Assembly: GCA_000091205.1 (NCBI GenBank)
Contig: AP006499.2
DNA length: 64,000 nucleotides
Strand: one strand, 5' to 3'
From: Cyanidioschyzon merolae
Lineage: Eukaryota
Shown: positions 1-22,033 of the stretch, piece after piece
Position numbering within the stretch: the stretch's first letter is position 1
Layout of the letters: each line of letters begins with the position of its first letter
Notes under the pieces: model-generated
Databases searched by the model: none
Told to the model about the DNA's origin: nothing
Seen by the model: only the letters and a program-made list of their open reading frames with translations
Made by a program: the position numbers and the translations under genes

Positions 1-147
1 CGTGCGGTCTGCTTTCTGACGCCCTCAACAGCGTCGGCCACGCCAGCTAGAGGAAAGCCGACTCGAACTGCGCAATGTGAGACGCGCCCACAGCAGGACC
101 TTGGGACGACAGAGTTCGCGGATGAGCAGGAGATCTCGGTAGGAGGC

Positions 148-2391
148 TTGGTTGACTCAACGTCTTCACGTGCGCAGCGGACCTGTGACTCATCAGGAGC
201 GGTGTGTATTGAGCCCGTTTCAGAGTTCAGCGAGAGGCTTGTCGTGTCCACTGAAACGAACCCGCGTACCGAAGGTAACTGGTATTTTGAGCTTCCCTGG
301 CCAGATGGAGGACTTTGCTCCCAAGACCAGGGAGGCGCTTGTAGAAAAGCTCCAGATGTTCGTCTTCCGCGAGGCGCCGCCCAGGGTGGGGCAGCTGCTA
401 CGAGTGTACTGCTGAAGCACTCGGCTAGTCTTTCACGAGACTCGAGTTCTGCGAGGCGCCAGACGAAACCGGGCCCGTCCCAGACGGTTGCGTCTTTTCT
501 TTTTAGCGCTCAAAAAGTGGTTGACGCTCCCCGGAATTTCTTCGTATCAAGCTGCGGATATGTTGCGAACGAGCCTGATTCAGCGAAAAATCTCTCAAAT
601 TGCTGGCAGGTACCTCTCGAAGGTGCCTCAGACAAGCCTGCGGTCTGGAGGCAAGACGTTCAGGAAACTTCTCATGGTTATGAGTATTCTCTTGCGACAG
701 AGCGTGTTGCGTTTGAAACTGCATCCGATGTGCTTGCCGATGAGGAGCAGAAATTATTCAACCAACAAGAATCGAGCCATCCTACAGTGCGGGACAACAT
801 GTCGCCATCCTTCTCCACAAGCGGGGACTCTACGAACGAGGATCCTGAAAGGAACGAAATTACTCGTTTCACGCCACCAAGAGCTCCAGCTTCGAAGACA
901 TCGTATGAGCGCAGACTTGCTGAGAGCAGGAATCTGTTCCCCGTTTCAAATCTGAATGTTGCAGATGCAGACCTCAGATCTCCGTTACATAGAAGCGCTT
1001 CACAACATCGGAGCGATGGAAGCCTAGCACCTCAAGTAAGAGAAATCAGATCTACACGACAGCTGAATAAGATACTCAGCGCACTATACAAATCAGGTCG
1101 GGCAGCGGATGCACTCAGTTTGTGTAGAATTGTGGAGAGAGAGGGACATATTGAGATAGATGTAGCATCCTACTCTATCCTTATCTCGTGTCTTGGGAAA
1201 TGCGGCGCGTCGGCACAAGCAATCGAAATGTTTCACAAAATGATAAGAAATGGCGTAGCGCCCAATGCATTCACGTTTTCAGCGCTCTTCGGAGCGTTGA
1301 CTGACGGTGCCTTCTTCGATCAGGCAATGCGGCTCTTTCAGATGATCAGAGCAAGCTATCCCAATGAGCTTAATGTCGTAGTATACAATGCCGTTCTGAA
1401 ATACGTGGGCCGGGCGGGCAGAATCGACGCAGCGTTGGATCTACTGGGGCAGATGGAACAAAACCGGAACGTGCAACCAGACATCGTAACATACGGGACA
1501 ATACTCGATATTTGCGCAAAGAAGCAAGACGTCTCGCTGGCGTATGCGGTTCTCGATCGGATGCGAAAACGTGGCATGCGACCGAACAACTTCTGTTACG
1601 CGTCTCTCATTGACGCATGTGCACGTGCGGGTCTCCCGGACCAGGCCGAGTCTCTGTTCCGGCAACTACGAGCCGAAGGCCTGGAGTACGACTTGTTTAT
1701 CTGCAATGCCCTGCTTGGCGCTTTCGCCCGGGCAAAAATGGTGGAGCGAGCTTTTCAGGCCTTCGAGGAAATGCGCAGCGCGGGCGTGCGAGGAGATCGC
1801 ATCACCTTTAACACCTTGATCACCGCAGCGGCGCGTGCACGCGAGTTCGACAAAGCCTGGAAAGCTTTCGAGACGATGAAAAAGTCGAACATTTCTGCAG
1901 ACGCAACGACATACAATGCTCTGATTGATGCCTGTAGCAAGAGCGGCATGACTGAGCTGGCGTTTGCGCTTTTCAACGAAATGCGCCAAGCTCATCTGCA
2001 GCCGACGATCTTTACCTTCAATGCTCTCATTGGAGCATGCACGAAATTACAGGATATGCGCAGAGCCACGCAGGTTTTAATGCTCATGCATGGCTTTGGT
2101 GTGTATCCGGATACATTTACACTGAACATTCTTTTAACAGCATGTGCGCGGAACGAAGACTTTGACTATGCGATAAGTTTGGTTCGGGAGTTCGAAACGA
2201 ATTATCGCGTTCGCCTGGATCGCCTCGGTTCTAGCATTGTAACAAACCTTTGCATCAAAGCGTGCGACTCTCAATCAAGGGACCGTTGCTTGAGGCTTCT
2301 TGAGGCTGCAGTACTCGAAGGCTACGAAACATTACGAGAGGTTCGAGATCGAGCTCGTAGCGCTTTCGCAAACCCAATGACTGGCTCATGA
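148..2391 (+). CDS. Pentatricopeptide-repeat (PPR) protein; N-terminal ~300 aa low-complexity, probable organelle targeting region
   Basis: Tandem 35-aa PPR units are visible in the translation, e.g. 'TYNALIDACSKSGMTELAFALFNEMRQAHLQPTIFTFNALIGACTKLQDMRRATQVLMLMHGFGVYPDTFTLNILLTACAR'. There are at least 8 consecutive repeats between aa ~310 and 690. It is one 747-aa ORF. Confidence 0.8.
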   Translation: MVDSTSSRAQRTCDSSGAVCIEPVSEFSERLVVSTETNPRTEGNWYFELPWPDGGLCSQDQGGACRKAPDVRLPRGAAQGGAAATSVLLKHSASLSRDSSSARRQTKPGPSQTVASFLFSAQKVVDAPRNFFVSSCGYVANEPDSAKNLSNCWQVPLEGASDKPAVWRQDVQETSHGYEYSLATERVAFETASDVLADEEQKLFNQQESSHPTVRDNMSPSFSTSGDSTNEDPERNEITRFTPPRAPASKTSYERRLAESRNLFPVSNLNVADADLRSPLHRSASQHRSDGSLAPQVREIRSTRQLNKILSALYKSGRAADALSLCRIVEREGHIEIDVASYSILISCLGKCGASAQAIEMFHKMIRNGVAPNAFTFSALFGALTDGAFFDQAMRLFQMIRASYPNELNVVVYNAVLKYVGRAGRIDAALDLLGQMEQNRNVQPDIVTYGTILDICAKKQDVSLAYAVLDRMRKRGMRPNNFCYASLIDACARAGLPDQAESLFRQLRAEGLEYDLFICNALLGAFARAKMVERAFQAFEEMRSAGVRGDRITFNTLITAAARAREFDKAWKAFETMKKSNISADATTYNALIDACSKSGMTELAFALFNEMRQAHLQPTIFTFNALIGACTKLQDMRRATQVLMLMHGFGVYPDTFTLNILLTACARNEDFDYAISLVREFETNYRVRLDRLGSSIVTNLCIKACDSQSRDRCLRLLEAAVLEGYETLREVRDRARSAFANPMTGS

Positions 2392-2804
2392 TGAGCTGGA
2401 AAGCGACTTGATTTGACCAGGATCGTCGGACTTTGAATCGAACGGGATTCGCTTAACGTATTTGGGATATTTAGTCATTTTCATGGGACAGATACGTCGT
2501 TGCAGCCGCAACGGTTTGCGATGAGGCGTTGATACTGCTTTAGACTGATGCGCTCAAACCTAGCGAGCTGTCCTGCATAGCTATACGAGCGCACCGGCAT
2601 TCTTTAGAGTGAATACAACGTGTCGAGATTTGGAGGTACTCGCTTCACCGGCGCACAATATGCCGACGTCGCGATATGCAGCCGATCCCTGAGCTCCTGT
2701 ACAGAGGAGGCAATATCTCCCAGCGGGTAGCTTTTGGAAATTAATCCGTCGAAAATTATGGGAATCTGAACATGTACATATGATTGGTCACAATGAGGCT
2801 AAAG

Positions 2805-4039
2805 CACCCGCCGTAGCTCGGTTGCAAGGGACTCCACCCCCGCCCGGTCGACCGCTCGCCAATCGTCCGGCCGCATGCAGCGTCACTGGCGGACCCAAGT
2901 ACCAAACGCCCCGTGCGAAAGGCACAGCGCCATCGCCGATGGCCCGGGGGCCGCTGCGCCGGCGCACTGACACCCAAACAAGATGCGTCCCGCCTTTACG
3001 CTCCATGATTGATGAATCTAGCCTGACCTTCCCGGATGCGCGCATGCTCTGGCGAGCAACAGCGGTATACGCCGTCAGCTCCATCCGTGTGCCATCGCCA
3101 GCCGCAGCTTTCGCCGCTCGCGCGCGCACGCACGAGCATGGCTGCGGACGCACACGCACGCCATGCGCATCTCAGCTATCATAGGCACAGGGAATGAACG
3201 TCGCTGGTGCGGCCGCGCGCTACCATATCGTGCAGCCGCATTGCAAATCAAGTCGCACACGCATCACCCGATACATGCGACGTCTGGCGCCGCTGCACGC
3301 TGCCCACAAATCATCGCAACATGATCGGAACTTGCCAGCGCCGGTGAATCTGCATGCAGCGCGCCACAGTCCAGATATGAGTACGAAGCGGGACTTTCGC
3401 GCTCTGTATGGTCGATCCCAACTGTAGCGTACAGCACGTCAACTGGCGGTCCACAGAACGGCGCATCGATTCCGGCTTCGTTACTTTGCAAAACGCTACA
3501 AGCGTCTGCGCGGTTGAGTCGCTCCTGCTGCGCGGACGTTACTGCATATGCCCCTGTTGCGTCTTTCTGAGACTGCATAGTGTGTGCGTAGACGCACGCA
3601 GGCGCACATCGCGGGCGTTGTCCATCCGGTCGCTCTTCAGCATTGCATTTCAGTAGCATGTGCGCCGCACATCAAACATGAATCTATGCGTGCGCATCGA
3701 GCGCGGCTTCCTCGGAGCCCAGCTTCCGCTGCAACGGAACACGCCGCAGCTGTGGGCAGAGGCGCGCTCATCGCCAGTGATGAGCGTACATGTGTCGAGC
3801 TGTTATTCGAGCGCACACAAGGAGAACTTGCATGCCGAGAATTTTCGCTCAGGGTGCCCTGAGATGGTGCTCGTGTGGGGTCATCAGGCGGACCCAGCAG
3901 TTCCTCCGTTCCATCAAGAGCCGAGTGAATAGCGGAGACTACAAGCGCTACCGAGTGACCCATGAGGCATCGCATGCTCCAGGCGCAGACGCTAGCAGTC
4001 GGGGCGCGTGCAGCGCAAGTGTCATATCAGGAGAGATGG
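2805..4039. repeat. Left arm of 1.23-kb inverted repeat (IR-C); GC-rich, non-coding
   Basis: Its reverse complement matches 7806-9038. The ORF-track peptides are mirrored exactly, e.g. 3637..3975(-) equals 7868..8206(+). There are about 1-2 mismatches per 250 bp in the inner part, decaying toward the outer ends. All six frames give short overlapping ORFs, typical of GC-rich non-coding DNA. Confidence 0.9.
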
Positions 4040-4618
4040 TTTCGGCCCCGCTCAAAAACTCTGATTTGGGATCTCAGTGATATGGGACTGAGCGGGGAGC
4101 GCGCATGTTTGCATAAATCTGTTCCAGATCGCCTGTGAAGTTCCCTCTTTCCGAGCAGATGTACGAATGAGGAACCAAGTGCAATCTTCCCGGATTTTCA
4201 GGATATCTGCTCAGCATGATCCAGGGTGAATTGCGCGATCACTCTACATATTCCAAGTTGTCTTCCACAAAAAGCATGAAGAATTCGGGTCATTCAGAAA
4301 CCAAGAAGCAGTATGCTAGTGCAAAACGAAACCGTGCTCATCACGTGCCGAACTTTTTTAAGAGCGCGCACGATGCTCCTTGTTATGCTTGCAGACCAAT
4401 GCGTGGAGCAAAGTAGTGCCCGCTTACCTAAATGCGGAGAGCAATCGCGCATTGAAACGATCCCTGCTAAGACTAATTGAGTTCTAGCCATGAAAATCTA
4501 CATAAAAGATTACTACTGGCTCTAAGCACAGCATGCTCGACAGGAAAAAAGCTCATTTCACGAAAATTTCCGAACTGATTCTGATCCGGAATGAAAATAC
4601 TTGAAAAAGAGAAAGCGT

Positions 4619-6538
4619 CTAAAAAGCCGGCAAGAATGCCTTGTCGCGTGCCAGCGGATTTGCTCTGCCATCTTGGGGTCCATTTCTGAGCATCTGAAGA
4701 ATCAAGACGGATGATAAAATGAAACCGATGTGACGCACTCGGACGTGTGATGGCACTAATGATCGCACTTTCAGACGAGGACGATCGCGGTTTCTCAGAA
4801 ACACATTTTCACCAATGGTCACAAAACGATCGAGGAAAGAGATCCCGTTGGGAAGAATCAAATTACCCGCCGAATCCCGCGGACAAGACTCCGAGTTTTC
4901 GACTACACAGACAGGAATGAATATATCCCTTCGACCGGATACGCGATGTACTTCCTCTTGTGCAAGATGCATCCTTCTAGCAAGATTCTCTTCAAATGTG
5001 AGGCCCTCTGGAGGGAGCGCATACCCATGTGTGAAAACCAGTATGCATCGCTCCCATACTCCACCATCGAAGAGACTCTTCAGTTCCTCCAAAACTAGCC
5101 TGAAACAATGGGATCGGTACGAATCCAGTCGCTCTATAATGCAGACAATGTCGATTTCCAAACCGCGAAGCGCAGCTGCGACACTCTCGCATGTTCCAGC
5201 GCGGCTCCATTTCTTAGAATCCTCCCCAGCTTCATCGTAAAAATATTTTTCAGAGGAAGGGATCTCAATCAAACGCAGAGACATCCCTTCCTTTTCTACA
5301 GGATAAATCAGAACGTTTTCGTTCGGCGAAGGAACGAATTCAGTCTTGCGATTTGGATGCGCTCTTTGTTCCCTTTCACGTTCATACGATCGCTCTTCTA
5401 TTACTTCGAGCCCATGCTCTGGATCTCGTTCTAAAATCTCATCATCCGATAGTATGAGAGCCATGGTGTGGTTGGTTCGTGCGACAGGGCTTCCAAGAAT
5501 GCGGTTAATTGTGGCAGACTTTCCTGCACCGATCGTGCCAGCGAAAAGAATAGTGGCATCTCGAAATGGAGAATGCGCGCGAACGACGTCCACTAATTGA
5601 TTTACAGTGGCGCACCCTGGCCGCGAATCATTCCCAAAGCCGCGAATGATTTCCTCATAGTTCCTTCTTTGGAGACCGACTTGCTTCATGCAAGCTGTGA
5701 ATGCTTCCGAGTCCGTCTTTTCGGCGTAAGCACAAAGCACTTTGCACGCAAGGTGCAGATTTTTTCCTTCAATAACGTCTTCTGGCTCAAACAGTGCATT
5801 GGCATCGAGCCCCGCATTCCGTGCAGAATCCAGAAAGAGCTGAATGCACCGCCGCATGCTGTCCAAATTCCGTGCATCTCCAGAGCACGGAGCGTCTATT
5901 CCGGCAATATGCAAGAAAACGTTAGGGTCGCTGAGCACAGCCCGAAGCCCGTTTGAAGAAGATTCCGATGCGCCTGTTTTTCGTGCGATCCACAACAGGC
6001 AGAGCCTTTCCAAGGCTTTTTCAGTGGCATCTGGAATAGCTCCCCAAGGTTGCTCCCCACAGACCTCCGACAGCGAAGGCTTATCAGAAAGCGTAGGGCT
6101 GGGCCCCTGCTGCCAACTCGACCCAGACTCTTTGAGATCTTTGCTATATGGCGCTGGGCTTGTCACCACGAGTGCTGCGAGACGAGACAGGTTAAGCTCT
6201 TGCTTCACGTGTATACCCATGTTGTAAAGATGTCGCTCATCGGATATGAAGAATTCTCCGTCAGCTGCGTTTTCCGCTCCGTGTCCTTCAGATTCCGTGC
6301 CTTTTCGGGACTGGCTAAGCACCCCTGGAAGAAGATTACGCCGAAAGAGTTGGCGCCGACGTGACCGAGTTCGTCCTGTGGAAGGCCTCGAGCCTCTCGT
6401 GGTTTTATCCGAGTCGGCTGTGCGCCGGCCAGAGACGTCGCGCCTTTCAGCAGCATCATCACCGCGAGGCTCGACACGCTCTGCAAAATCCAGTCTGACT
6501 TGTTCTCTAGTCTGCGGAGAGGTAAAGCTCTCCGTCAT
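4619..6538 (-). CDS. AIG1/Toc34-type (TRAFAC, paraseptin-like) GTPase with ~370-aa N-terminal extension and C-terminal hydrophobic anchor
   Basis: P-loop 'ILFAGTIGAGKSATINRILG' resembles AIG1 'GKSATGNSI' and Toc34 'GKSSTVNSI'. The family-specific 'CILVFTHGYALPPEGLTFEE' resembles Toc34 'LTHAQFSPPDGL'. The C-terminal 'HIGFILSSVLILQML' is a likely TM helix. It is a 639-aa ORF. Confidence 0.6.
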   Translation of the reverse strand: MTESFTSPQTREQVRLDFAERVEPRGDDAAERRDVSGRRTADSDKTTRGSRPSTGRTRSRRRQLFRRNLLPGVLSQSRKGTESEGHGAENAADGEFFISDERHLYNMGIHVKQELNLSRLAALVVTSPAPYSKDLKESGSSWQQGPSPTLSDKPSLSEVCGEQPWGAIPDATEKALERLCLLWIARKTGASESSSNGLRAVLSDPNVFLHIAGIDAPCSGDARNLDSMRRCIQLFLDSARNAGLDANALFEPEDVIEGKNLHLACKVLCAYAEKTDSEAFTACMKQVGLQRRNYEEIIRGFGNDSRPGCATVNQLVDVVRAHSPFRDATILFAGTIGAGKSATINRILGSPVARTNHTMALILSDDEILERDPEHGLEVIEERSYEREREQRAHPNRKTEFVPSPNENVLIYPVEKEGMSLRLIEIPSSEKYFYDEAGEDSKKWSRAGTCESVAAALRGLEIDIVCIIERLDSYRSHCFRLVLEELKSLFDGGVWERCILVFTHGYALPPEGLTFEENLARRMHLAQEEVHRVSGRRDIFIPVCVVENSESCPRDSAGNLILPNGISFLDRFVTIGENVFLRNRDRPRLKVRSLVPSHVRVRHIGFILSSVLILQMLRNGPQDGRANPLARDKAFLPAF

Positions 6539-6824
6539 TTACGGTGCCCTGGAGGTGTCGAGTCCTGCAACTATGCACCTGAGACGCAGCTGAACGAAGC
6601 CCAAACGTTCTGCAGAATCTGAGTAAATTAATACCGGCGTGCAGACGCATACCAACTTTTTTTGACCGTCTCCATGCTATCGGTTTCAACTTGTCATTGT
6701 ACAGCTCGATCCTGAGAGGTTGCCCCACAAAGTTGACTCTTGTCAGCTCCTTGGGTCTCATTTTCAGCACCGCACATTTTCTGATATTGATGATGGCATG
6801 GAAGTCTCGGTTCACGAACTCCAT
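6507..6824 (-). mobile_element. Degenerate Tc1/mariner transposase N-terminal (paired-like HTH with GRPR-like linker) fragment
   Basis: Peptide 'IRKCAVLKMRPKELTRVNFVGQPLRIELYNDKLKPIAWRRSKK' aligns to Tc1 'KTGRPRVTSSRADRLLIRSSKQNP'-type HTH1-GRPR-HTH2. Paralogous copies lie at 48249-48524 and 63535-63954. No DDE domain follows it; the GTPase gene starts right there. Confidence 0.45.
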
Positions 6825-7275
6825 GCGTTTATTGCCTCTGGATCAACGCACTATTGCTAGAGTTCCTCGAACTCGTACCCACTGTCCCACTACAGTCTCG
6901 TCATCCTCCCGTTGGGCATACATCTTTTGCTCAGTTGGCTCCCCTATTTTTCTTCGTCTTCGTTATTTCCTCTTCTTCGCTGCATGGTTGGCGAGAACGA
7001 GATGTTCCGTTTATTACTGCAGTCATCGATGACGGCCCTCAAGGATTCGCAAATTCCAGATCCATAACATTCTCACAGATTTTTACTTTTGGAAAAGAAC
7101 GCACTTAGAACGTATTTACTGAAACCTGGGAAAAAGCATTTGCTTACGCTCATCTGCGGACGGAACACAGATGAGGTGCAAGCCTCGAAATGACGCGATC
7201 GCAAATTTGCACAGTCCATTCGGTTTGGAAAGTCTTGATTAGAAAGTCTTCTGCTCTACTAGAACGAATCCGGAT

Positions 7276-7509
7276 ATGCTTGGGAGGACGCTGAGTTTAT
7301 TAAAGTCAAAAGTGGCCAGAAGTGCCCCGTTTCTTCACGCGAAGCATGGACCGCAGAACTACTACAAAGGAAACCGCTGTCGTCGGCTGGGTCGACACAC
7401 GCGCAAGGGTGGGTACGTCGTAGACCACGCAAACAAGGTCCCTGACTTCAGAATACCGCAAATTCCAGAAGATTTTCCACTGAAACCATATGTTGCAGTT
7501 GGTTCGTAA
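7276..7509 (+). CDS. Mitochondrial ribosomal protein mL41 (MRPL41/yeast MRPL27 family), first exon
   Basis: 'NYYKGNRCRRLGRHTRKGGYVVDHANKVPDFRIPQIPEDFPLKPYV' matches the mL41 family signature (compare 'FVVPDLTGFKLKPYVS'). The ORF stops in ...GGTTCG|GTAAAG, a plausible 5' splice donor. This suggests a downstream exon. Confidence 0.55.
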   Translation: MLGRTLSLLKSKVARSAPFLHAKHGPQNYYKGNRCRRLGRHTRKGGYVVDHANKVPDFRIPQIPEDFPLKPYVAVGS

Positions 7510-7805
7510 AGGTTTCTGGGGCTACGTTTGGACACCTTTCGTCGTGGCGAGGGAAAAATCTGCAGGGAGTTTCAAATAACGCTGCAATATGGACGACTAT
7601 GATGAGAAGACGCTTCTTTCCCCAACTGAGGCGCAACGGTTTTTACACCACTGCCAATATGACGATTAAGGCAAGTACTTACCTCTGAGAGTCCTGATGC
7701 AACCCTGTCAAAAACATATAGCGCAAAAGCACGAATAAGGTCACGGTCCTTCTGTGAGTGGCAGTATTTCACAACGTTGAGTTTTACTCGAAGCAGCTGG
7801 AAACC

Positions 7806-9038
7806 CTCTCTCCTGATATGACACTTGCGCTGCACGCGCCCCGACTGCTAGCGTCTGCGCCTGGAGCATGCGATGCCTCATGGGTCACTCAGTAGCGCTT
7901 GTAGTCTCCGCTATTCACTCGGCTCTTGATGGAACGGAGGAACTGCTGGGTCCGCCTGATGACCCCACACGAGCACCATCTCAGGGCACCCTGAGCGAAA
8001 ATTCTCGGCATGCAAGTTCTCCTTGTGTGCGCTCGAATAACAGCTCGACACATGTACGCTCATCACTGGCGATGAGCGCGCCTCTGCCCACAGCTGCAGC
8101 GTGTTCCGTTGCAGCGGAAGCTGGGCTCCGAGGAAGCCGCGCTCGATGCGCACGCATAGATTCATGTTTGATGTGCGGCGCACATGCTACTGAAATGCAA
8201 TGCTGAAGAGCGACCGGATGGACAACGCCCGCGATGTGCGCCTGCGTGCGTCTACGCACACACTATGCAGTCTCAGAAAGACGCAACAGGGGCATATGCA
8301 GTAACGTCCGCGCAGCAGGAGCGACTCAACCGCGCAGACGCTTGTAGCGTTTTGTAAAGTAACGAAGCCGGTATCGATGCGCCGTTCTGTGGACCGCCAG
8401 TTGACGTGCTGTACGCTACAGTTGGGATCGACCATACAGAGCGCGAAAGTCCCGCTTCGTACTCATATCTGGACTGTGGCGCGCTGCATGCAGATTCACC
8501 GGCGCTGGCAAGTTCCGATCATGTTGCGATGATTTGTGGGCAGCGTGCAGCGGCGCCAGACGTCGCATGTATCGGGTGATGCGTGTGCGACTTGATTTGC
8601 AATGCGGCTGCACGATATGGTAGCGCGCGGCCGCACCAGCGACGTTCATTCCCTGTGCCTATGATAGCTGAGATGCGCATGGCGTGCGTGTGCGTCCGCA
8701 GCCATGCTCGTGCGTGCGCGCGCGAGCGGCGAAAGCTGCGGCTGGCGATGGCACACGGATGGAGCTGACGGCGTATACCGCTGTTGCTCGCCAGAGCATG
8801 CGCACATCCGGGAAGGTCACGCAAGATTCATCAATCATGGAGCGTAACGGCGGGACGCATCTTGTTTGGGTGTCAGTGCGCCGGCGCAGCGGCCCCCGGG
8901 CCATCGGCGATGGCGCTGTGCCTTTCGCACGGGGCGTTTGGTACTTGGGTCCGCCAGTGACGCTGCATGCGGCCGGACGATTGGCGAGCGGTCGACCGGG
9001 CGGGGGTGGAGTCCCTTGCAACCGAGCTACGGCGGGTG
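7806..9038. repeat. Right arm of inverted repeat IR-C
   Basis: It is the reverse complement of 2805-4039 (see the left arm). Confidence 0.9.
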
Positions 9039-9532
9039 TGCTGTATTTAGTTTTCATGGGTCGGAGGAGGTAACCTTCGCGATGCCGCTCCATGCGTCGC
9101 GACCGTATTGGAGAGAGCCACATTGTACCAATTGGCATGATGAACTGACCCGTTTGCGTAGATGCAACTAGCATTGAAAGAAATCGCAGCACGACTTCAT
9201 GAAGGATCCGAATCACGAAAATCGATACCACAGATTAATTGAACTTCCTCCAGTGCGCATTGGCCTTCTACACGGAGAATGGAGTATACTACACCGACGT
9301 CGAACTGCGCGACAATCTTCCATCTATTCGTCTTCATAGTCCAATCGGATAGATTACACCCGGGGTCCGAGAAAGATCCCTCAATTTTTGTGCGGGGCGT
9401 CGAGTCCACTGCGTCCAGTTCATTCTGTTCAGGGATCGTCTCCCTTTAGCTACGGCACGCATGTCCAACGCTTCGTGCATGATTGCGAAAAGGGTCTCAT
9501 GGAGGCTGAGCCCCCGATAGACGAGACCCCAA

Positions 9533-10075
9533 TCAGTTCCGGCCAAAATGGTCGCGAAGTATTGTTGCTACGCAGGTTGCCGCACCCTCTGGTGGGACGC
9601 CTACTGCCCGCCAGCGAACGCGAGCGCTCCTATCTAAAAAATAGACGTAAGCGCTAAAACGGTTTTCGATGTGTAAAAGGCTTAGAAACTCCGTGAAAAG
9701 TTTGTCCTTCCGTGAAGGTGTGTAAATCAGACTCCCAGCAGGCAGCAACTGTTTCTGAAAACCTACCAGAAGGCGATCAAGCAGCCTTTCATTTACTGTT
9801 AACTCATATATGGGAAGTCTTTTTTCTGCCTCAGTCAGAATTCCGCGCCATGTGTCTAGTGCCTGTTGAGAAAACGCACGAAAGCCCAAAAGAAGCCAGC
9901 TTTCCTGCTTCCCTCCACTGGTAAGGTATGCGCGAGAGTCCTTAACGACAGTGCTTTTCCCTGCAACTTCGAATGCGATTTCCGGAAAGAGCCGCGCTTC
10001 CTCCGTTCGGATAAGACTAGGCAACAAGAAACTGTCCTTTAGACCGCGGATAACCTTCGGCGACAACCTAGTCAT
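9533..10075 (-). CDS. Possible ATP10-like F1Fo-ATP synthase assembly factor (thioredoxin-like)
   Basis: The C-terminal 'SAYVYFLDRSARVRWRAVGVPPEGE' resembles the conserved 'YLVD..G.IRWAG.G' motif of the ATP10 family. It is a 180-aa ORF, recalled from memory only. Confidence 0.3.
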   Translation of the reverse strand: MTRLSPKVIRGLKDSFLLPSLIRTEEARLFPEIAFEVAGKSTVVKDSRAYLTSGGKQESWLLLGFRAFSQQALDTWRGILTEAEKRLPIYELTVNERLLDRLLVGFQKQLLPAGSLIYTPSRKDKLFTEFLSLLHIENRFSAYVYFLDRSARVRWRAVGVPPEGAATCVATILRDHFGRN

Positions 10076-10253
10076 GAAACCAGGACGCTACGAGGCGCAT
10101 ACAGACGATAGAAATTTTGCCCGCATTCTAGCCACACGCCGCTCGCTCGCCGAAATGCACTGCAGGCAGCTGCTAAATAGATGACAAACGCTTAAATGCG
10201 AAGCAAAACAGACGCTGCTACAATGATCCATCGACGGCTTCTCGGGGCATTCG

Positions 10254-12872
10254 TTATGGAAACTCATAGGCGACTTCCAAAAGAGCAAAATCACATCCCG
10301 GTGCCGCGCGATACAGAGCCAGCAGGCAAGCCATTGGTTTGTTACGAATAGCGGCGAGTCCCTTCTCACGTAGCGAGCCGCGCAAGCTTGCGCCGAAGCG
10401 ACCCAGAAATGCTGTGCGTTTGTTGTAAGTTTTGGCGATCCCTGACCCGAAAACAGTTCTTCCAGGGGTGATGACGACAGGGATCCAGCTATTGTTGTCA
10501 TTCAGAGCGCGAAGGTGCCCAATGTGAATCTCATCGAAGTAAACAGTAGCGAATGAGGATCCTGCTAGCCCTAAAGCCTTCGCTTCCTCGAGCTGAGCCT
10601 TCTCAGGTTTTGAGGTGGATCTGAAGCACGAAAGATATCCGTATACCAGAACCTCTCGTCTTTCTCGTAGAAAGATTTCCGACTGGACTGCTCTAAGTCG
10701 CTCAAACTCAATGCAAAGGTTTTCAATTTTCTCCTGGCCTCCATACAGTGCTGCTAATTGCTCTAGCGTGTCAGTGTATCGAAAGGTGCTATGCTGGATC
10801 CTTCCAAGTGCGAATGTTTGACGTATCTTGACAGATTTTTTCCCCTCCGAGGATTGAATCCATCGAGCTAATGCCAGTATACGACGAACAAGACGATCCT
10901 GCAGAATTACTTTCGGAATATTTTCAGGGAGGCTCGTGCCCTCCGTTCTTTTTTGCTGTTCTCTTACTCCATCTAGCAGGTACATTGAGGTCCATCGGGT
11001 CGAATGTACCTCCATGATGCTGACACCATCAAAAGGAGCATTGTACAGCTCTCGCTTTTCGAGGGATGTTAGCAGGATTGCCGCACCTGGAACGCAGATA
11101 GCATCAAATGCATCGCGTTGGGAGGTTTCATAAAGGCGAATGCAGACGTCTCGCGCTTCGGATCCATCGCGCGCCAAAATGATTCTATATTTCCTAAAAA
11201 TGTAGTAGTCATCTGATGCACTCAGTATTTGCGGTGCACTCGTCCGTTCTGCAGACCTGTACGTCCCGCGCTCTCGATACAGAGGTGACACATGTGTCAC
11301 AATGCATGCTAGAGAGAAATACGAGCGGTCGTCCCATGCATCCAGAGCGCTGGTAAGAATGCAGGGGTGGTAGAGTTCACCCGTTCGACCACCGCCAAGC
11401 TTTGCAATAGGTCCGAAATCAAGTAACTCCTCATAATTATCTGAAAGCTTCCGAATAATGCCCTGGGGCGATGATGCATTCAGGTGAATCTCGCCTCTGC
11501 GTACACGGTAATTCTCTATGATAAGGATGTCACCGAGTTGAATGTGATAAAAATATTTGGAACAAAGCGAATTCCACACGACAACAGTAGCAGAATCCGC
11601 ACCGTCACCTATCTCAAATTCGAATTTGAATGGCACTGACTGCCGCATGTCACTCTTTTTCGGCCATGGCATTAGGGACGTCTTTCTGAGGACGCGCCCG
11701 ATGATTGGTCGCTTCACGTCTCCCATCAGCGCCCTGGCGATGCGCACCGCTGCACTAGTGACTGATTTAATCGAAGCTGGGTCTTCGACACGCTCTACGT
11801 TGCTAGGGTCTCGCAATCTGGAATCGACAGGTAAGGCATCAAACGCTCCAGGACCAAGATAACTCTTTCTCGACGATGCCAAAGGGACATTTGCAGCAGT
11901 CTCAAGCGGGGTGGATGACGTTGTCCAAGCGCATGTCAGGGGAACGTCTATCCAAAAATCCTCGTGGGGTCGACGTAGTACGAGACAGTCATACACAACG
12001 ATTACTCGAGGCGGGTAGAGTCCGCGCAATTCGTTGAAACGAACTGACCATTTTCTTATTTCTAAAATGCTCCCTCGATCTAGGTCACCGGACTGGACGA
12101 TTGAATTCAAATGTGGGTGTAGGCAAAAGCGTGTTTTCGTCTGCTCAACCGGATTGCAGACGGTAATGTCATACGCATCTGCATCCATCTCAGGGATTTC
12201 ATCTTTTGTGCCGTTGACCGTAAACCAATAGGCTTGATCCCGGATATAATGCCGGACGCATAGAACTAGGAACACGATTGAACCGCGGCATTCTTCCCCA
12301 GGAGCACACTCGTGGAGCTTTTCCGTGCCAGCAGTCGTGAATATTTGGTCTCGTTCCTTTGGCTCTGAAGAGCCGCTCTGAACCAGGCTTGAAGAGGCTG
12401 AAACCTGACCTGTGTTGGACTTTGCAAGCTTTTGATTTGCGACTTTTAACGTGCCCTCCCTCGGCCGCTTGCGCTGGTTTCCACGGTTTCCAGTCTGTCG
12501 CTTGCTGCGTGAGTCCCGCGAGTCAGACCCTTCGACCTGTACTGTACGATTCTCTACAGCCTTCTGCAGCGGCTTTGCTCGACTCTTTTGCAGCTCTTCG
12601 TCTTGCCTCCTTTGGAAAATAGGTTTCACATAGTCATCAGCCTTGGTGTCGCCGAAGCGTCCACTTTTACGAGGCATTAACCGTTCTGTACGAGAACGTT
12701 TGTTGTTTTCTCGGATACACTCGCAATCAGAAATTTGCGCCACATTCAAATTGGGCGCGTGCTGGACAGATGGTGCATCATAAGCACAGGATGTATCCAG
12801 CTGCGCGCAGCTTCCGCCTATATCAGTCAAAGATAGAATAGACCCCGTGAGGAAAGTCGGACGTACTCGCAC
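10254..12872 (-). CDS. Hypothetical nuclear protein (872 aa): basic low-complexity N-terminus, central OB-fold-like segment
   Basis: Long uninterrupted ORF. The K/R-rich region is at aa 55-160. 'FKFEFEIGDGADSATVVVWNSLCSKYFYHIQLGDILIIENYRVRRGE' is OB-fold-like. No family was recognised. The first ~23 codons lie inside repeat DR-A, so the true start is probably a downstream Met. Confidence 0.5.
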   Translation of the reverse strand: MRVRPTFLTGSILSLTDIGGSCAQLDTSCAYDAPSVQHAPNLNVAQISDCECIRENNKRSRTERLMPRKSGRFGDTKADDYVKPIFQRRQDEELQKSRAKPLQKAVENRTVQVEGSDSRDSRSKRQTGNRGNQRKRPREGTLKVANQKLAKSNTGQVSASSSLVQSGSSEPKERDQIFTTAGTEKLHECAPGEECRGSIVFLVLCVRHYIRDQAYWFTVNGTKDEIPEMDADAYDITVCNPVEQTKTRFCLHPHLNSIVQSGDLDRGSILEIRKWSVRFNELRGLYPPRVIVVYDCLVLRRPHEDFWIDVPLTCAWTTSSTPLETAANVPLASSRKSYLGPGAFDALPVDSRLRDPSNVERVEDPASIKSVTSAAVRIARALMGDVKRPIIGRVLRKTSLMPWPKKSDMRQSVPFKFEFEIGDGADSATVVVWNSLCSKYFYHIQLGDILIIENYRVRRGEIHLNASSPQGIIRKLSDNYEELLDFGPIAKLGGGRTGELYHPCILTSALDAWDDRSYFSLACIVTHVSPLYRERGTYRSAERTSAPQILSASDDYYIFRKYRIILARDGSEARDVCIRLYETSQRDAFDAICVPGAAILLTSLEKRELYNAPFDGVSIMEVHSTRWTSMYLLDGVREQQKRTEGTSLPENIPKVILQDRLVRRILALARWIQSSEGKKSVKIRQTFALGRIQHSTFRYTDTLEQLAALYGGQEKIENLCIEFERLRAVQSEIFLRERREVLVYGYLSCFRSTSKPEKAQLEEAKALGLAGSSFATVYFDEIHIGHLRALNDNNSWIPVVITPGRTVFGSGIAKTYNKRTAFLGRFGASLRGSLREKGLAAIRNKPMACLLALYRAAPGCDFALLEVAYEFP

Positions 12873-15621
12873 TATATTCTGGACCTATTTTGCACGACCA
12901 TCAGCACAAGTCATTGCAGTTTGCACCGCGACCGCTTCCTTCTCCTTTCCCGTATCTCCGACTTTCAATACGCTGGCGTCTCCTAGCCCTCCAGCTTCGA
13001 TGTCAGCAGGCGAAGGATGCCGATGGCTGCGTTCATTCGAACCCAGAGTTTCCTGCTTCCAGCCCTCATCGACGTACTTCATGCAAAGGCGGAAGTTGTG
13101 ATCTGCGCTTCTTTTAGCATTTTCATCCTTTTTGTCCACAACTCCGGTGCACCCTTCGCAGCGAGGACACTTGCCCGTTGTCCGGTGCCGCCATACGTCC
13201 ATCGCACGTCTTGCTCCGAGTGCCGCCCTGTGGCGCATGCCTGCTTGCAGTGTCGCTCGGTACACGCCCTCGACGGGTGCAGAGCGCTCCGCTCCATGCG
13301 CTCTTCAGTTTCTGTGCCCAGCGCCATACCCTGCGATCACAGGCTCGGGCTGGGCGATCCCCGCGGCAAGCACCCTCACTGCTGGGCGCGTAAACGCTCG
13401 CTGCTCGATTCGAGTACTCGGAATCCGCTCCCTCGCACGCTCTTCGTTTTTCGCGTACGCTTCCCATCGAAGCTGCCGACGAGCATCACGCGACTCGAGG
13501 TGCCGTGCCAGCTCATGAGTATTGTGCGCGCAGGTTCCATCCACTTGCGACGATGCGGGTCAGCCATCTGCGACTCCCTTCGTCTCCGGTCGCTCGCTCG
13601 CTCGCTTGCGTGTTCTTCTATCCCCATACTCGTTCGCTTCCGCTTCAGCGAAGATGGCAGGCGCGGGAGGAGAAGTCACGACTGTGGGCGTAACTCGGAC
13701 GTTTCCGATCCCGTGCCCCGGGACGGGGTGTCGGTTTCCACATGGGCGTCGGGCTTCGCCTCGGGTCTCACGGAGGCGCTGGTGCAACGCTTCGCTCTCC
13801 TTGGGCTCCTGCCGTTGCTAAGTGCACTGGATTGCAGGTTCACGAGGCCACGCATCTGTACAGCTTGCTGCTCATCGTCGCCGTGTTTCCTGTTCTGAGC
13901 AGGGGTGCGTTGGAGCTCTGATGGGGCCTTGAGGCATGTAGGGCGCTCACGACTGATAGCGGTGGATGCTGCCAGGCCATCGGTCTCGAACGAGGACACC
14001 ACGCCTCCTCGACTTTATGTGAGCGTTCTGTTTCTATCTGTTCCCTGCCTGTCGCATCTCTCTTTAGCGTCGTTCGCTTTTCGTTCCCCCAGCGGTTCAT
14101 GAGTGTCTCCGAAGTTTCGGGCGAAATTTGCGTAGTACGCTTCATGTACTCTATGCTGTCGATGGATACCTCCTCTTCTTCGATGTGCTCCTTGGCCTCC
14201 ATAGGACGTTTCCATGCCCTAATCCCTCGTGCGTGGGCGCCCACTTCGCAGCGAGGCGAAAAAGCCGCGAACCGGGGCGCGCGTACGAGCGACCTATAAA
14301 TGCGTTTACAGCAAGGCGAAAATCCATTCCATTCAGGGGCTCTGGAACAGTTCCCGAGGTGCAGAGGCTGTTTCACTCGCTCGGGTAGGCACTCGCAGGC
14401 TGCAGGTCTATAGTCTCCTCGACATGTTCGTCTTCCAGGATACTCAACGGAGGCTCACGCGCTCTGTATATCCGCCCAGCATATTCAAGTCGGCGAAGCG
14501 CCCGTCATGAAGAGCTCGTCCATGCCGTCCAGGCTGGTATCTGAGTCGTCATCCGCACGTATCCACGTCATCGAATCCTTCACGCGCCATGGGAATGAAT
14601 GCTGGCATGATCCAGGGTCGCGCGGCGTAGTTTTCCGCCCATATACACCTTTGAGTTATCCAGGCTGATTTGGGTCGCGAAGCGAATGCTGGCCTCGAAA
14701 TGCGCAACGTCGTTCGGCTATGGAGCCAAAGTGCCCGCGACGTCGATGAAAGCACAGTGCAGGTGAGGTGTGTCCCGACTACGCTTCGAGACAGTGACGG
14801 CATGAAAGGCCATCGATGCCAACGGTGCATCTACGAAGTTGTTCGGTTTCTCAGGGACCCCGATGCACTGGACGTACACGGTCCTAGGCAGGAGGTAAGC
14901 GCGCCACTGACGCATGCTGCAAAGAAGCGCATGTTTGCGGACGCGGAATCTGATATCCGGCGGGTGCGGGTGCATTTCGAAGTATCCCTTGCCGACAGTG
15001 GTGCCGTAGAATACCTCATACAAACAGCGAAGGAGGGAGTTTCCGAGATCGTATCCCGTGAGATGTAGCGCACTGCTTATTTGGGATGTGGTTTCGTTGA
15101 TGGTTGGAAAGCGAGAATATTTTGTGTTTCAAACGGAATCGATTATATGAGGTGAGGATTTGAACATACTTTCGGTATGAGCTCTTGAAGAAGTATTCGC
15201 ACGAAAACTTCCAACTTTTGCGTCGTCAACCGAGCGTAGCGGCCTGGTGCGCCCACGAGTAGCCTTGAAACATGGAGATCGGAAGCGTGCAGAATGCCTG
15301 ACTTGAGCGTGCAACGCGTAACTAAAGGAAAAGAGTTCAGGCTTCCTTGTACGAATTGCATCATGATATCGGCTATTTTAGGCAACGGTATGTGAGGATA
15401 TCTCGAATCACCTTGATGCTGGTGATGTAACGAATCCCTTCGGTGCAAAGTCGAGGGAGCCACTTTGAAGAGTCGACCGAGAATCCTAGAACGATGCATG
15501 AGTCCTGAGGCCCTCATTGCTGGACTATGAATACTCGGGTCCTGCATCTGAAAATGAGTTCGGGTGAAAAATCGAAATCGAGGAACACAGGCAGCAGCTC
15601 CGTGTTCTACTTCACTCCGAC
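12858..15621 (+). repeat. DR-A copy 1: 2.76-kb GC-rich non-coding direct repeat (full length)
   Basis: Collinear with 28111-30874 at a constant offset of 15253, with about 10 substitutions. Its 5' 1.34 kb is collinear with 18615-19951 at offset 5757, with no differences seen. There are no long or conserved ORFs. It contains (CTCG)n at ~13588. Confidence 0.9.
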
Positions 15622-17674: not shown

Positions 17675-18319
17675 TCACTGTAATGGTTGAAAGTTCGTTA
17701 TCTGCTCGAAAGGCATCTTCCCGTTCAAGAACTCACCATGGATGATGCCCGCAAAGCCGAGCATGGCAAGTCGCCCGTTATTCACTTCCCGATCCCGCAT
17801 GGCCTTGTCGTTCGGCAAGTTGAGGGGATTGAAGCCCAGCTCACCAGGCTTCCGCCCTTTCCATTCCATATCGGAATAGAGCACCTTGCCACGGTGGAGC
17901 AGGAACTCAAGAAACCCGATGAATGCTAAGATCTGAATCATGGCCCCAGACTTGACGAAATAGTCATGGGCTGGTCCAGCGAGTTTAGGAGCCCCCGCGA
18001 AGAACGGAAACTGGTAAAACTCGGTTACGAAGAAGTGCAGGCAAGCGAGCATTGCGACGCGCCCGTTCTTAATCTCGCCCTCTTGAAGCCAGTTAACGTC
18101 GAACGCATCAGAGAAGCGAAGCGGGTCAAAACCACGATATCCCGGCATATCAGGCGACAGGTTAGGCGGTTTCGAAAGGAACGGTAGCGCCGGCGACTGC
18201 TCCATTTTTAGAGTAGCATAACCCGAAGCATGTCTCGAACGGATAGCGCTGGTGCCAGTTGCCTTGGATACCGTATTGGCGCGCTGAACAAGTGGAGCGA
18301 AACTCACGAAAGCGTACAT
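17675..18319 (-). CDS. Light-harvesting complex protein, fucoxanthin-chlorophyll a/c (FCP/Lhc) family, last exon
   Basis: Helix 1 is 'EGEIKNGRVAMLACLHF'. Helix 3 is 'REVNNGRLAMLGFAGIIHGEF'. 'IAFIGFLE' is identical to diatom FCP. 'GFDPL' is present. The 'FVS|FAP' motif sits only 6 aa from the ORF Met. Confidence 0.85.
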   Translation of the reverse strand: MYAFVSFAPLVQRANTVSKATGTSAIRSRHASGYATLKMEQSPALPFLSKPPNLSPDMPGYRGFDPLRFSDAFDVNWLQEGEIKNGRVAMLACLHFFVTEFYQFPFFAGAPKLAGPAHDYFVKSGAMIQILAFIGFLEFLLHRGKVLYSDMEWKGRKPGELGFNPLNLPNDKAMRDREVNNGRLAMLGFAGIIHGEFLNGKMPFEQITNFQPLQ

Positions 18320-21922: not shown

Positions 21923-22033
21923 GGTCAGCTAAACCCGTCTCCAGTAAAGCAAGGGAAACCAGCTGTGCACGCACGCCTTTTATCGAGGGACTGCCGTTTT
22001 CGAAATCGCGTTGTATGGATCGCTAACTGCGCC

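What the first reader, a model, noticed from the sequence alone, without database searches (positions are those of the whole stretch)
2805..9038. 1.23-kb inverted repeats bracket a 3.8-kb unit carrying an AIG1/Toc34-type GTPase and an mL41 exon
The arms (2805-4039 and 7806-9038) are GC-rich and non-coding. They are about 99% identical in their inner kilobase, with divergence only toward the outer ends. They enclose exactly two host-type genes, an HTH fragment of a mariner and AT-rich spacer. This has the architecture of a composite or foldback-type element, or of a gene cassette that can be inverted by recombination between the arms (a flip-flop). Decay of identity at the outer ends with high identity in the inner part is what recurrent intra-element gene conversion would produce. 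No transposase is present inside, so any mobility would be non-autonomous.
Basis: partly seen in the sequence, partly recalled or inferred. Interest (0 to 1): 0.7.

Follow-up and report, generated by a model that had tools for sequence, protein, structure and literature searches.

The report
Invertible two-gene segment between inverted repeats
In the red alga Cyanidioschyzon merolae, two ordinary genes sit between a pair of near-identical 1.24-kb inverted repeats that behave as a substrate for homologous recombination rather than a transposon; the sister genus has an equivalent repeat pair at the same locus, and its strains carry the enclosed segment in opposite orientations.

Summary
The inverted repeat is real. 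The arms are 2805-4043 and 7800-9038, 1239 nt ungapped, with 9 mismatches and sharp edges. The window is C. merolae 10D, chromosome 17. The arms are non-coding and GC-rich (61%), and I found no other copy. They enclose CMQ137C (a Toc34-like AIG1 GTPase) and CMQ138C (a complete mL41 gene, not an exon).

I found no target-site duplication, transposase, sub-repeats or mariner HTH fragment, so the transposon reading fails. The claimed outer-end decay of identity is also absent.

The key evidence is comparative:
- Cyanidiococcus yangmingshanensis has its own ~1.9-kb inverted repeat around the orthologous block. Its arms are unrelated in sequence to the C. merolae arms.
- Two independent assemblies of that species carry the block in opposite orientations, with breakpoints inside the arms. 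Published gene order for a third strain matches one of them.
- In both genera, some arm sites are fixed in both arms of one strain and differ between strains. This indicates arm-to-arm gene conversion.
- The outgroup Cyanidium has no repeat.

Wild C. merolae contigs show all four junction types, but short-read assembly cannot phase a 1.2-kb repeat, so flipping in C. merolae itself is unproven.

Verdict: recombination-driven inversion with concerted evolution of the arms. This is a new member of a known kind and probably neutral.

The parts
2805..4043 (.). Left arm of the inverted repeat (1239 nt, 61% GC, non-coding). It lies between the 3' ends of the convergent PPR and GTPase genes.
   Evidence: coordinates, 9 mismatches, sharp edges; no coding signal; GC content
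7800..9038 (.). Right arm of the inverted repeat, the reverse complement of the left arm. It lies between the 3' ends of the convergent mL41 and ATP10-like genes.
4044..7799 (.). Unique 3756-nt interior, the segment that recombination between the arms would invert.
   Evidence: orientation evidence
4619..6538 (-). CMQ137C, 639 aa. AIG1/Toc34-type GTPase with a weak N-terminal calponin-homology match. Its 3' end faces the left arm, 575 nt away.
   Evidence: AIG1 35.6 bits against a cut-off of 27; CH E=5.6e-4, below cut-off; Toc34 structures, E=4e-18; identical to BAM82044.1; gene ID
7276..7509 (+). CMQ138C, a complete 77-aa mitochondrial ribosomal protein mL41 gene. Its 3' end faces the right arm, 290 nt away.
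   Evidence: PF09809, 47 bits against a cut-off of 25; equals annotated 10D protein P0020; gene ID
148..2391 (+). Left flanking gene, a PPR protein. It is 805 aa in wild contigs and its start lies upstream of the window. Its stop is 413 nt from the left arm.
9533..10075 (-). Right flanking gene, ATP10-like (180 aa). Its stop is 494 nt from the right arm. Its adjacency to mL41 is ancestral.
10254..12872 (-). RADX-like OB-fold protein (872 aa). It serves as the right-flank marker in the orientation comparisons.

Best explanation
The structure is a low-copy inverted duplication of about 1.24 kb of non-coding DNA. The copies sit in two 3'-3' intergenic spacers and bracket CMQ137C and CMQ138C on chromosome 17 of C. 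merolae 10D.

The two arms pair and recombine through the cell's ordinary homologous-recombination machinery. Non-crossover outcomes copy sequence from one arm to the other. That keeps the arms about 99% identical while the sequence itself drifts between strains and species. Crossover outcomes invert the 3.76-kb interior.

All four bordering genes point their 3' ends at the arms. Inversion therefore breaks no gene and moves no promoter, so the polymorphism is probably neutral. The repeat arose after the split from Cyanidium.

What is shown:
- the repeat and its anatomy
- concerted evolution of the arms in both genera
- inversion between Cyanidiococcus strains with breakpoints inside the arms

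What is inferred:
- that the same flipping happens in C. merolae
- that the repeats of the two genera descend from one ancestral repeat
- that the inversion is neutral
For: 1. Anatomy. The arms are 1239 nt with 9 mismatches and sharp edges. They are non-coding, and the flanking genes converge on them.

2. Cyanidiococcus locus L012 has inverted-repeat arms at 953-2854 / 12417-14319 around mL41, X, CAP59 and the GTPase.

3. L012 and L013 are independent assemblies (GCA_026122185.1 and GCA_013995675.1). They are collinear over arms plus interior (98.9%), but their flanks are swapped. In the four-arm alignment the outer-flank columns follow the pattern XYYX and the inner columns follow XYXY.

4. 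The gene order of a third strain, NIES-4659 Ha1, from the supplement of PMC13353863, matches L013.

5. Concerted evolution in Cyanidiococcus. Six arm sites are fixed in both arms of a strain but differ between strains. The arms differ at 0/1889 sites within THAL066 and 16/1889 within 8.1.23 F7, against 10-18/1889 between strains. Unique intergenic DNA differs by 2.1% between strains.

6. Concerted evolution in C. merolae. Arm positions 580 and 582 carry one allele in both arms of 10D and another in both arms of most wild contigs: 11 of the 15 arm sequences that cover them, from both the GTPase side and the mL41 side.

7. The 10D arms differ from each other by 0.73%. Wild contig L001 differs from 10D by only about 0.03-0.1% in unique sequence. 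The duplication is therefore much older than the strain split.

8. Wild contigs show all four junction types:
- left flank-arm-GTPase side: L004-L007
- right flank-arm-mL41 side: L010, L023, L029
- right flank-arm-GTPase side: L001-L003
- left flank-arm-mL41 side: L020

9. A third lineage (L011/L014, GCA_041825655.1) has the block fixed in the inverted orientation and has no repeat. The outgroup Cyanidium has mL41 and ATP10 only 186 nt apart and no repeat.

10. From my own knowledge, not tested here: C. merolae integrates DNA by homologous recombination with arms of about 0.5-1.5 kb, so 1.2 kb of homology should be enough.
Against: - For C. merolae itself, the two-orientation evidence comes only from short-read metagenome (possibly metatranscriptome) contigs. 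A 1.2-kb repeat collapses in the assembly graph. Many contigs stop at the arm edge plus one k-mer length (L034 at 141 nt, L035 at 127 nt) or at SNP sites 1148 and 1233. Contigs that cross an arm may therefore have chosen a path arbitrarily, and the mosaic arm haplotypes could be bubble-popping artefacts.
- The published 10D versus MS1 Ha3 comparison mentions only one inversion, on other chromosomes (chromosomes 3 and 19 are highlighted). A 6-kb inversion would, however, be invisible at that scale.
- The arms of the two genera share no detectable sequence, so common descent of the repeats is not demonstrated. One gain plus one loss is no more parsimonious than two gains.
- I did not search the rest of the 16.5-Mb genome for other arm copies.
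Confidence: 0.72

Rival explanations
1. A static local inverted duplication. One event copied a 1.24-kb spacer in inverted orientation. Since then the two copies have simply accumulated mutations, with no arm-to-arm exchange and no inversion in C. merolae.
For: - The 10D orientation keeps the ancestral mL41-ATP10 adjacency.
- The arms differ at 9 sites, so they are not fully homogenised.
- The contigs showing the inverted junctions could be assembler path choices.
Against: - Alleles at arm positions 580 and 582 are shared by both arms within a strain but differ between 10D and most wild contigs. That requires exchange between the arms.
- Arm-to-arm divergence (0.73%) far exceeds strain divergence in unique DNA (about 0.03-0.1%). 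Yet some wild arm pairs appear almost identical: L004-L007 and L023 differ only at site 1233.
- The equivalent repeat in Cyanidiococcus demonstrably inverts and homogenises.
Confidence: 0.13
2. Independent origins. The inverted repeats of Cyanidioschyzon and Cyanidiococcus are not homologous. Each arose separately, for example as the inverted duplications that staggered breaks leave at inversion breakpoints, at the same rearrangement-prone spacers. This rival concerns history only and is compatible with the recombination mechanism above.
For: - The arms share no detectable similarity by blastn or tblastx.
- Arm lengths differ (1.24 against 1.9 kb), and so do the outer boundaries (494 nt from the ATP10 stop in one, overlapping it by 28 nt in the other).
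- The L011 lineage, which is closer to Cyanidiococcus, has no repeat, so two gains cost the same as one gain plus one loss.
- The neighbourhood has been reshuffled repeatedly. C. merolae also carries other young repeats nearby.
Against: - Both repeats bracket the same GTPase...mL41 block next to ATP10-RADX.
- The inner boundaries fall at very similar distances from the stop codons: 575 against 514 nt after the GTPase, and 290 against 277 nt after mL41.
- Repeats make up only 0.59% of the Cyanidiococcus genome (PMC9812998), so a chance coincidence of position is unlikely.
- Non-coding DNA is not expected to stay alignable at this divergence, where proteins are about 50% identical. Lack of similarity is therefore uninformative.
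Confidence: 0.3
3. A mobile element: a composite or foldback-type transposon, or a non-autonomous element that captured two host genes.
For: Only the superficial architecture fits, namely long terminal inverted repeats around a cargo.
Against: - There is no target-site duplication of 2-12 nt.
- There are no tandem sub-repeats in the arms.
- I found no transposase or HTH fragment.
- I found no other arm copy in the window, in the scanned metagenome collection, or as translated relatives among 5.8 billion protein clusters.
- The cargo genes and their neighbours are in ancestral synteny.
Confidence: 0.03
4. A programmed switch. A dedicated site-specific recombinase (as with Hin/Gin or FLP) flips the segment to regulate the enclosed or neighbouring genes.
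For: A repeat-bracketed block persists in two genera, and both orientations exist.
Against: - No recombinase is encoded in or near the unit.
- The arms sit at the 3' ends of four convergent genes, so no promoter or coding sequence is switched.
- The arms are long and their sequence is not conserved between genera, unlike short conserved recombinase target sites.
- Strains appear fixed for one orientation in the clonal haploid assemblies.
Confidence: 0.03

Closest known systems
The FLNA-EMD inversion on the eutherian X chromosome, and human recurrent inversion polymorphisms flanked by inverted segmental duplications (non-allelic homologous recombination). Cited from my own knowledge.
   Same: - A few ordinary genes lie between long inverted repeats of 99% identity or more.
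- Both orientations are found among individuals or lineages, with breakpoints inside the repeats.
- The arms evolve in concert, so they stay alike within a genome while diverging between lineages.
- No gene is disrupted.
   Different: - This case is in a compact, nearly intron-free 16.5-Mb algal genome.
- The arms are 1.2-1.9 kb rather than 10 kb or more, and the interior is 3.8-9.6 kb.
- Recurrence (repeated independent flips) is not yet demonstrated, and common descent of the repeats in the two genera is unproven.
Flip-flop isomerisation of the plastid genome inverted repeat
   Same: Large inverted repeats are kept identical by gene conversion, and recombination between them inverts the intervening single-copy region.
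   Different: - Plastid repeats carry rRNA genes and are essentially identical, and both isomers coexist in equal amounts in every cell.
- Here the locus is nuclear and single-copy in a haploid.
- The arms are non-coding and differ at 0-0.85% of sites.
- Clonal assemblies show one orientation each.
Y-chromosome palindromes with arm-to-arm gene conversion
   Same: Arm-to-arm conversion maintains about 99.9% identity over long periods. Raised GC content in the arms would fit GC-biased conversion.
   Different: Those palindromes have short spacers and carry multi-copy genes inside the arms. Here the arms are gene-free and the genes lie in the spacer.
Foldback and composite transposons
   Same: Long inverted termini around an internal segment.
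   Different: Target-site duplication, transposase, internal sub-repeats and multiple genomic copies were all looked for and not found.
Site-specific invertible switches (Hin/Gin, the fim switch, yeast 2-micron FLP/FRT)
   Same: A DNA segment inverts between inverted repeats.
   Different: Those systems use a dedicated recombinase, short defined crossover sites and a promoter or coding switch. None of these is present here.

Membership tests
Inversion polymorphism mediated by inverted low-copy repeats (non-allelic homologous recombination) | Two long, high-identity repeats in inverted orientation flank a unique segment | tested here: met
   1239-nt arms at 99.27% identity with a 3756-nt interior. 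Cyanidiococcus has 1.89-kb arms at 99.1-100% identity.
Inversion polymorphism mediated by inverted low-copy repeats (non-allelic homologous recombination) | Both orientations exist among individuals or strains, with breakpoints inside the repeats | tested here: inconclusive
   Met in Cyanidiococcus: L012 and L013 have swapped flanks with exchange inside the arms, and a third strain matches L013 in gene order. In C. merolae all four junction types occur in wild contigs, but short-read assembly cannot phase across a 1.2-kb repeat.
Inversion polymorphism mediated by inverted low-copy repeats (non-allelic homologous recombination) | Concerted evolution (gene conversion) of the arms | tested here: met
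   Six sites are fixed in both arms per Cyanidiococcus strain, and within-genome arm distance (0-0.85%) is at or below between-strain distance (0.53-0.95%). In C. merolae, arm positions 580 and 582 are shared by both arms within strains.
Foldback or composite transposon | Target-site duplication flanking the outer ends | tested here: not met
   No direct repeat of 2-12 nt at the outer junctions.
Foldback or composite transposon | A transposase (or remnant) inside, or arms that are themselves insertion-sequence or TE copies present elsewhere in the genome | tested here: not met
   No Pfam hit for arm ORFs or interior spacer ORFs. No further arm copy in the window, in the metagenome scan or as translated homologues. 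The rest of the 10D genome was not searched.
Foldback or composite transposon | Tandem sub-repeats within the long inverted termini (foldback elements) | tested here: not met
   Tandem Repeats Finder found nothing in 2400-9500. Only chance-level short repeats occur inside the arm.
Site-specific invertible switch | A dedicated recombinase gene at the locus, and a promoter or coding sequence that inversion toggles | tested here: not met
   Neighbouring genes are PPR, an AIG1 GTPase, mL41, ATP10-like and RADX-like. All four bordering genes have their 3' ends towards the arms.
Plastid-type flip-flop (both isomers in equal amounts within one clone) | Both orientations coexist within a clonal culture | not testable with these tools
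   This needs long reads or junction PCR from clonal 10D.
Toc34/AIG1 (TRAFAC-class) GTPases, for CMQ137C | A G domain homologous to AIG1/Toc34 | tested here: met
   PF04548 at 35.6 bits against a cut-off of 27. The best solved-structure hits are Toc34/Toc33 at E=4e-18 over residues 458-580. A role in plastid import is doubted in the literature (PMC9407449).
Mitochondrial ribosomal protein mL41 (Pfam MRP-L27), for CMQ138C | Match to PF09809 over a complete ORF | tested here: met
   47 bits against a cut-off of 25. The ORF equals annotated protein P0020, and orthologues of 80-85 aa exist in relatives.

The most novel reading that the evidence does not exclude
The repeat-bracketed GTPase/mL41 block may be an ancient flip-flop cassette that predates the Cyanidioschyzon-Cyanidiococcus split. 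On this reading it has been retained because the arrangement matters: the arms might act as shared 3' regulatory or termination elements for four convergent genes, or orientation might affect expression, replication or local recombination suppression in heterozygous diploids. The flipping would be recurrent and ongoing in natural populations. This would be an algal counterpart of the recurrent FLNA-EMD inversion, but under selection.
Probability: 0.1. Interest if true: 0.7.

Novelty: new member of a known kind. Interest (0 to 1): 0.42.

Why it matters
C. merolae and its relatives are model organisms prized for tiny, stable, telomere-to-telomere genomes, and they now have a tractable sexual cycle. 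This locus gives a concrete small-scale example of recombination between repeats reshaping those genomes. Strain comparisons made with whole-chromosome dot plots did not report it.

The system is compact and can be assayed by PCR. It could be used to measure mitotic and meiotic ectopic recombination, gene-conversion tract lengths and GC-biased conversion in a haploid/diploid red alga.

There is also a practical point for anyone engineering or assembling the CMQ136C-CMQ139C region. The orientation of CMQ137C-CMQ138C may differ between strains, and short-read assemblies of this locus are unreliable.

Tried and rejected
- Transposon reading: no target-site duplication, no tandem or internal sub-repeats, and no transposase or mariner HTH in arm ORFs or interior spacers.
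- RNA gene in the arms: no Rfam match at E<=0.1 in 1-14000.
- Foreign origin of the arms: no blastn match to plasmids or phages.
- Hidden coding sequence in the arms: codon usage and ORF lengths are at background level. tblastx against relatives gave only scattered compositional hits to the GC-rich Cyanidium locus.
- Homology between the arms of the two genera, or with the spacers of the repeat-free lineage: nothing significant.
That collection evidently covers C. merolae thinly, so the negative is weak.
- Phasing wild contigs by arm SNP haplotype, to prove inversion in C. merolae: the haplotypes are mosaics of left-arm and right-arm alleles. Real exchange and assembler bubble-popping both predict exactly this, so I do not count it as proof.
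- Coordinates of published inversions: the papers mention only inversions on other chromosomes, and the C. merolae supplementary table is truncated before the CMQ genes.
- Centromere position on chromosome 17, to ask whether the neighbouring second inverted repeat is centromeric: not available in the papers I could read.
- Fetching the 10D record by exact protein look-up failed. The window was identified as 10D from residue S99 of the GTPase and from the gene-ID order.
Full report
**Observation**

The inverted repeat exists as described in outline. The repeat finder reports a single pair in 1-14000, with arms at 2805-4043 and 7800-9038. The arms are 1239 nt and 3756 nt lie between them. An ungapped base-by-base comparison gives 9 mismatches, or 99.27% identity. 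Similarity stops abruptly at both ends. Just outside the outer edge 87 of 105 positions mismatch, and just inside the inner edge 109 of 157 mismatch. BLAST finds no further copy in the 64-kb window.

Counted from the outer end, the mismatches lie at arm positions 191, 216, 219, 235, 667, 684, 941, 1148 and 1233.

**What the locus is**

[quoted passage not shown] This includes Ser99, where wild metagenome variants carry Ala.

The literature names CMQ137C as one of two tentative Toc34 homologues (PMC9407449) and CMQ142C as Lhcr1 (PMC13306765). An orthology table lists CMQ137C as the Toc34-like gene, CMQ138C next to it, CMQ144C and CMQ146C (supplement of PMC13353863). This fits the window's gene order:

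| Feature | Coordinates | Strand |
|---|---|---|
| PPR gene | 148-2391 | + |
| Left arm | 2805-4043 | |
| CMQ137C GTPase | 4619-6538 | - |
| CMQ138C mL41 | 7276-7509 | + |
| Right arm | 7800-9038 | |
| ATP10-like | 9533-10075 | - |
| RADX-like | 10254-12872 | - |
| CRAL/TRIO protein | 15859-17118 | + |
| Lhcr1 | 17675-18319 | - |
| MA3-domain gene X (CMQ144C) | 20156-21922 | - |
| CAP59/GT69 (CMQ146C) | 26887-27912 | + |

The window is therefore on chromosome 17 of strain 10D.

**Contents of the unit**

- CMQ137C carries an AIG1 domain (35.6 bits against a cut-off of 27) and a sub-threshold calponin-homology match. Its closest solved structures are Toc34/Toc33 (E=4e-18).
- The 77-aa mL41 ORF is the complete annotated protein, not an exon.
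- The arms show no sign of coding. They have no Pfam hit. Arm ORFs score -0.30 to +0.03 on codon usage, against +0.065 to +0.13 for real genes of 180 aa or more. The longest stop-free stretch is 135 codons, against a shuffle median of 144.
- There is no Rfam match and no match to plasmids or phages.
- None of the ten longest stop-free stretches in the interior spacers matches a transposase or HTH family, even at E<=1. The 'mariner HTH fragment' is therefore unsupported.
- The arms are 61% GC. Adjacent unique spacers are 46-51% and neighbouring genes about 50%.
- All four bordering genes point their 3' ends at the arms.

**Is it a mobile element?**

I found none of the expected features.
- There is no target-site duplication.
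- There are no tandem or internal sub-repeats, and no transposase.
- I found no other arm copy in the window.
- A metagenome scan with an arm 30-mer returned only two contigs, both from this locus.
- A search with the translated arm ORF found a single protein cluster, again from this locus.
- The mL41-ATP10 adjacency across the right arm is ancestral synteny (see the next section).

The transposon reading is rejected. The caveat is that I could not search the rest of the 10D genome.

**Comparative evidence, the core result**

*Outgroup.* In Cyanidium caldarium (L019) the order is X(+) mL41(+), a 186-nt spacer, then ATP10(-) RADX(-) GTPase(-). There is no inverted repeat. The mL41/ATP10 adjacency seen in 10D is therefore ancestral, and the repeat arose later.

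*Sister genus.* In Cyanidiococcus yangmingshanensis strain 8.1.23 F7 (L012, GCA_026122185.1) the orthologous block is mL41, X, CAP59 and the GTPase. It is bracketed by its own inverted repeat at 953-2854 / 12417-14319. ATP10 and RADX lie just outside one arm.

*Second assembly.* An independent assembly of the same species (L013, GCA_013995675.1) is collinear with L012 across arms plus interior (98.9%), but the two flanks are exchanged and reversed. I aligned all four arms with 40 nt of context. The outer-flank columns follow the pattern XYYX and the inner columns follow XYXY. The interior is therefore inverted relative to the chromosome, and the exchange lies inside the arms.

*Third strain.* The published gene order for NIES-4659 Ha1 is g906, mL41, X, CAP59, GTPase, g911, CMQ139C, CMQ141C, LHC. 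This matches L013 and is opposite to 8.1.23 F7.

*Third lineage.* L011/L014-L016 (GCA_041825655.1) has PPR(+), then [mL41(-) X(-) CAP59(-) GTPase(+)], then ATP10(-) RADX(-). This is the inverted orientation, and no inverted repeat remains.

**Concerted evolution**

In Cyanidiococcus, six arm sites are fixed in both arms of one strain and differ in both arms of the other. Arm-to-arm distance is 0/1889 in THAL066 (L013) and 16/1889 in 8.1.23 F7. Between strains it is 10-18/1889, and unique intergenic DNA of the interior differs by 2.1%.

In C. merolae, positions 580 and 582 have one allele in both 10D arms. A different allele appears in most wild arm sequences that cover them (11 of 15), on both the GTPase side and the mL41 side. 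L020, L029, L032 and L033 carry the 10D alleles.

The 10D arms differ from each other by 0.73%. Wild contig L001 differs from 10D by only about 0.03-0.1% in unique sequence. The duplication is much older than the strain split, and the arms have exchanged sequence since.

The arms of the two genera share no detectable similarity. That is expected for non-coding DNA at about 50% protein identity, but it leaves common descent unproven. In favour of homology, the inner boundaries fall at similar distances from the stop codons: 575 against 514 nt after the GTPase, and 290 against 277 nt after mL41. In addition, repeats make up only 0.59% of the Cyanidiococcus genome (PMC9812998).

**Wild C. merolae**

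Contigs that carry the identical or near-identical genes and span a whole arm fall into four junction types:

| Junction | Contigs | Isomer |
|---|---|---|
| left flank-arm-GTPase side | L004-L007 | 10D form |
| right flank-arm-mL41 side | L010, L023, L029 | 10D form |
| right flank-arm-GTPase side | L001-L003 | inverted form |
| left flank-arm-mL41 side | L020 | inverted form |

Both reciprocal junctions of the inverted isomer are therefore seen, in independent samples.

I do not regard this as proof. Other contigs stop exactly one k-mer into the arm (141 nt and 127 nt) or at SNP sites 1148 and 1233. That shows the assembly graphs are ambiguous here. The mosaic arm haplotypes could be real exchange or bubble-popping. 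Several contigs also have chimeric or hairpin 5' ends just upstream of start codons, which suggests that some are metatranscriptome assemblies.

**Mechanism**

The best-supported account is ordinary homologous recombination between inverted low-copy repeats. Non-crossover events homogenise the arms. Crossovers invert the interior.

Because four genes converge on the arms, inversion leaves every gene and promoter intact, so it is most likely neutral. The raised GC content of the arms, and of the other high-identity repeats nearby, is compatible with GC-biased conversion. The few polarised sites give no test of that.

**Comparison with known systems, and novelty**

The closest analogues are inversion polymorphisms flanked by inverted segmental duplications. 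The best match is the recurrent FLNA-EMD inversion of eutherian X chromosomes. Plastid inverted-repeat flip-flop and Y-chromosome palindrome conversion are mechanistic relatives. These comparisons come from my own knowledge.

The papers on these genomes mention only a few large inversions on other chromosomes. I found no description of this locus.

I therefore rate it a new member of a known kind, of moderate interest. Its value is as a compact assay system for ectopic recombination in a model red alga, and as a caution for assembly and strain engineering at CMQ136C-CMQ139C.

Noticed in passing
window 22028-23394 and 24856-26222: A second inverted repeat: 1367-nt arms with 3 mismatches around a 1461-nt spacer that is AT-richer (43% GC) and holds no gene. 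It lies between gene X (CMQ144C, 20156-21922, -) and CAP59 (CMQ146C, 26887-27912, +). In the relatives these two genes are adjacent, on the same strand, and inside the repeat-bracketed block. I could not determine whether the spacer flips or has any link to the centromere of chromosome 17.
   Followed up: partly
window 12803-15621, 18560-19951, 28056-30874: A three-copy direct repeat of 1.4-2.8 kb at 99.8-99.9% identity and 56-59% GC. It fills the intergenic spacers after RADX, after Lhcr1 and after CAP59. It contains a 293-aa ORF with no Pfam hit. Its first ~70 nt overlap the 5' end of the RADX-like ORF, and metagenome contigs break at its edge. A ~400-nt stretch is 64% similar to the arms of the second inverted repeat.
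   Followed up: partly
window 20156-27912 compared with L012 3934-8538 and L011 3729-8286: In C. merolae, genes X and CAP59 have left the GTPase-mL41 block, where they sit in Cyanidiococcus and the L011 lineage. They now lie beyond Lhcr1, separated by the second inverted repeat and with X inverted relative to CAP59. The same eight or so genes are reshuffled locally in every lineage examined, including Cyanidium.
   Followed up: partly
L011 2006-2177 and 12209-12365 (also L014 and L015): The lineage that lacks the inverted repeat has a ~170-nt direct repeat (71% identity) in exactly the two border spacers of the block, PPR-mL41 and GTPase-ATP10. Because its copies are in direct orientation, it cannot be a simple remnant of an inverted repeat. 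Unexplained.
   Followed up: no
L004 1-611, L005 1-97, L006 1-108; L020, L023 and L025 5' ends: Several JGI contigs begin 36-70 nt upstream of the GTPase or mL41 start codons. Some begin with unrelated GC-rich sequence or a short inverted copy of GTPase sequence. This looks like transcript-derived (metatranscriptome) assembly. If so, the arms are covered by RNA, meaning the convergent genes read through or have long 3' UTRs across the arms.
   Followed up: no
window 2805-4043, 7800-9038, 12803-15621, 22028-23394: Every high-identity repeat in the window is GC-richer than the unique spacers beside it: 61%, 56-59% and 50%, against 43-51%. The Cyanidiococcus arms are 53% GC against a 48.5% locus average. 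This fits GC-biased gene conversion but was not tested.
   Followed up: no
window 57989-58184 and 58335-58530: A 196-nt inverted repeat at 80% complementarity with a 150-nt spacer. Not examined.
   Followed up: no
window 4619-6538 (residues 176-272 of the protein): The N-terminal half of the Toc34-like GTPase gives a sub-threshold calponin-homology match (E=5.6e-4). UniRef names the Cyanidiococcus orthologue a CH-domain protein. That is an unusual partner for a Toc34-type G domain. It fits published doubts that CMQ137C is a true TOC receptor.
   Followed up: no
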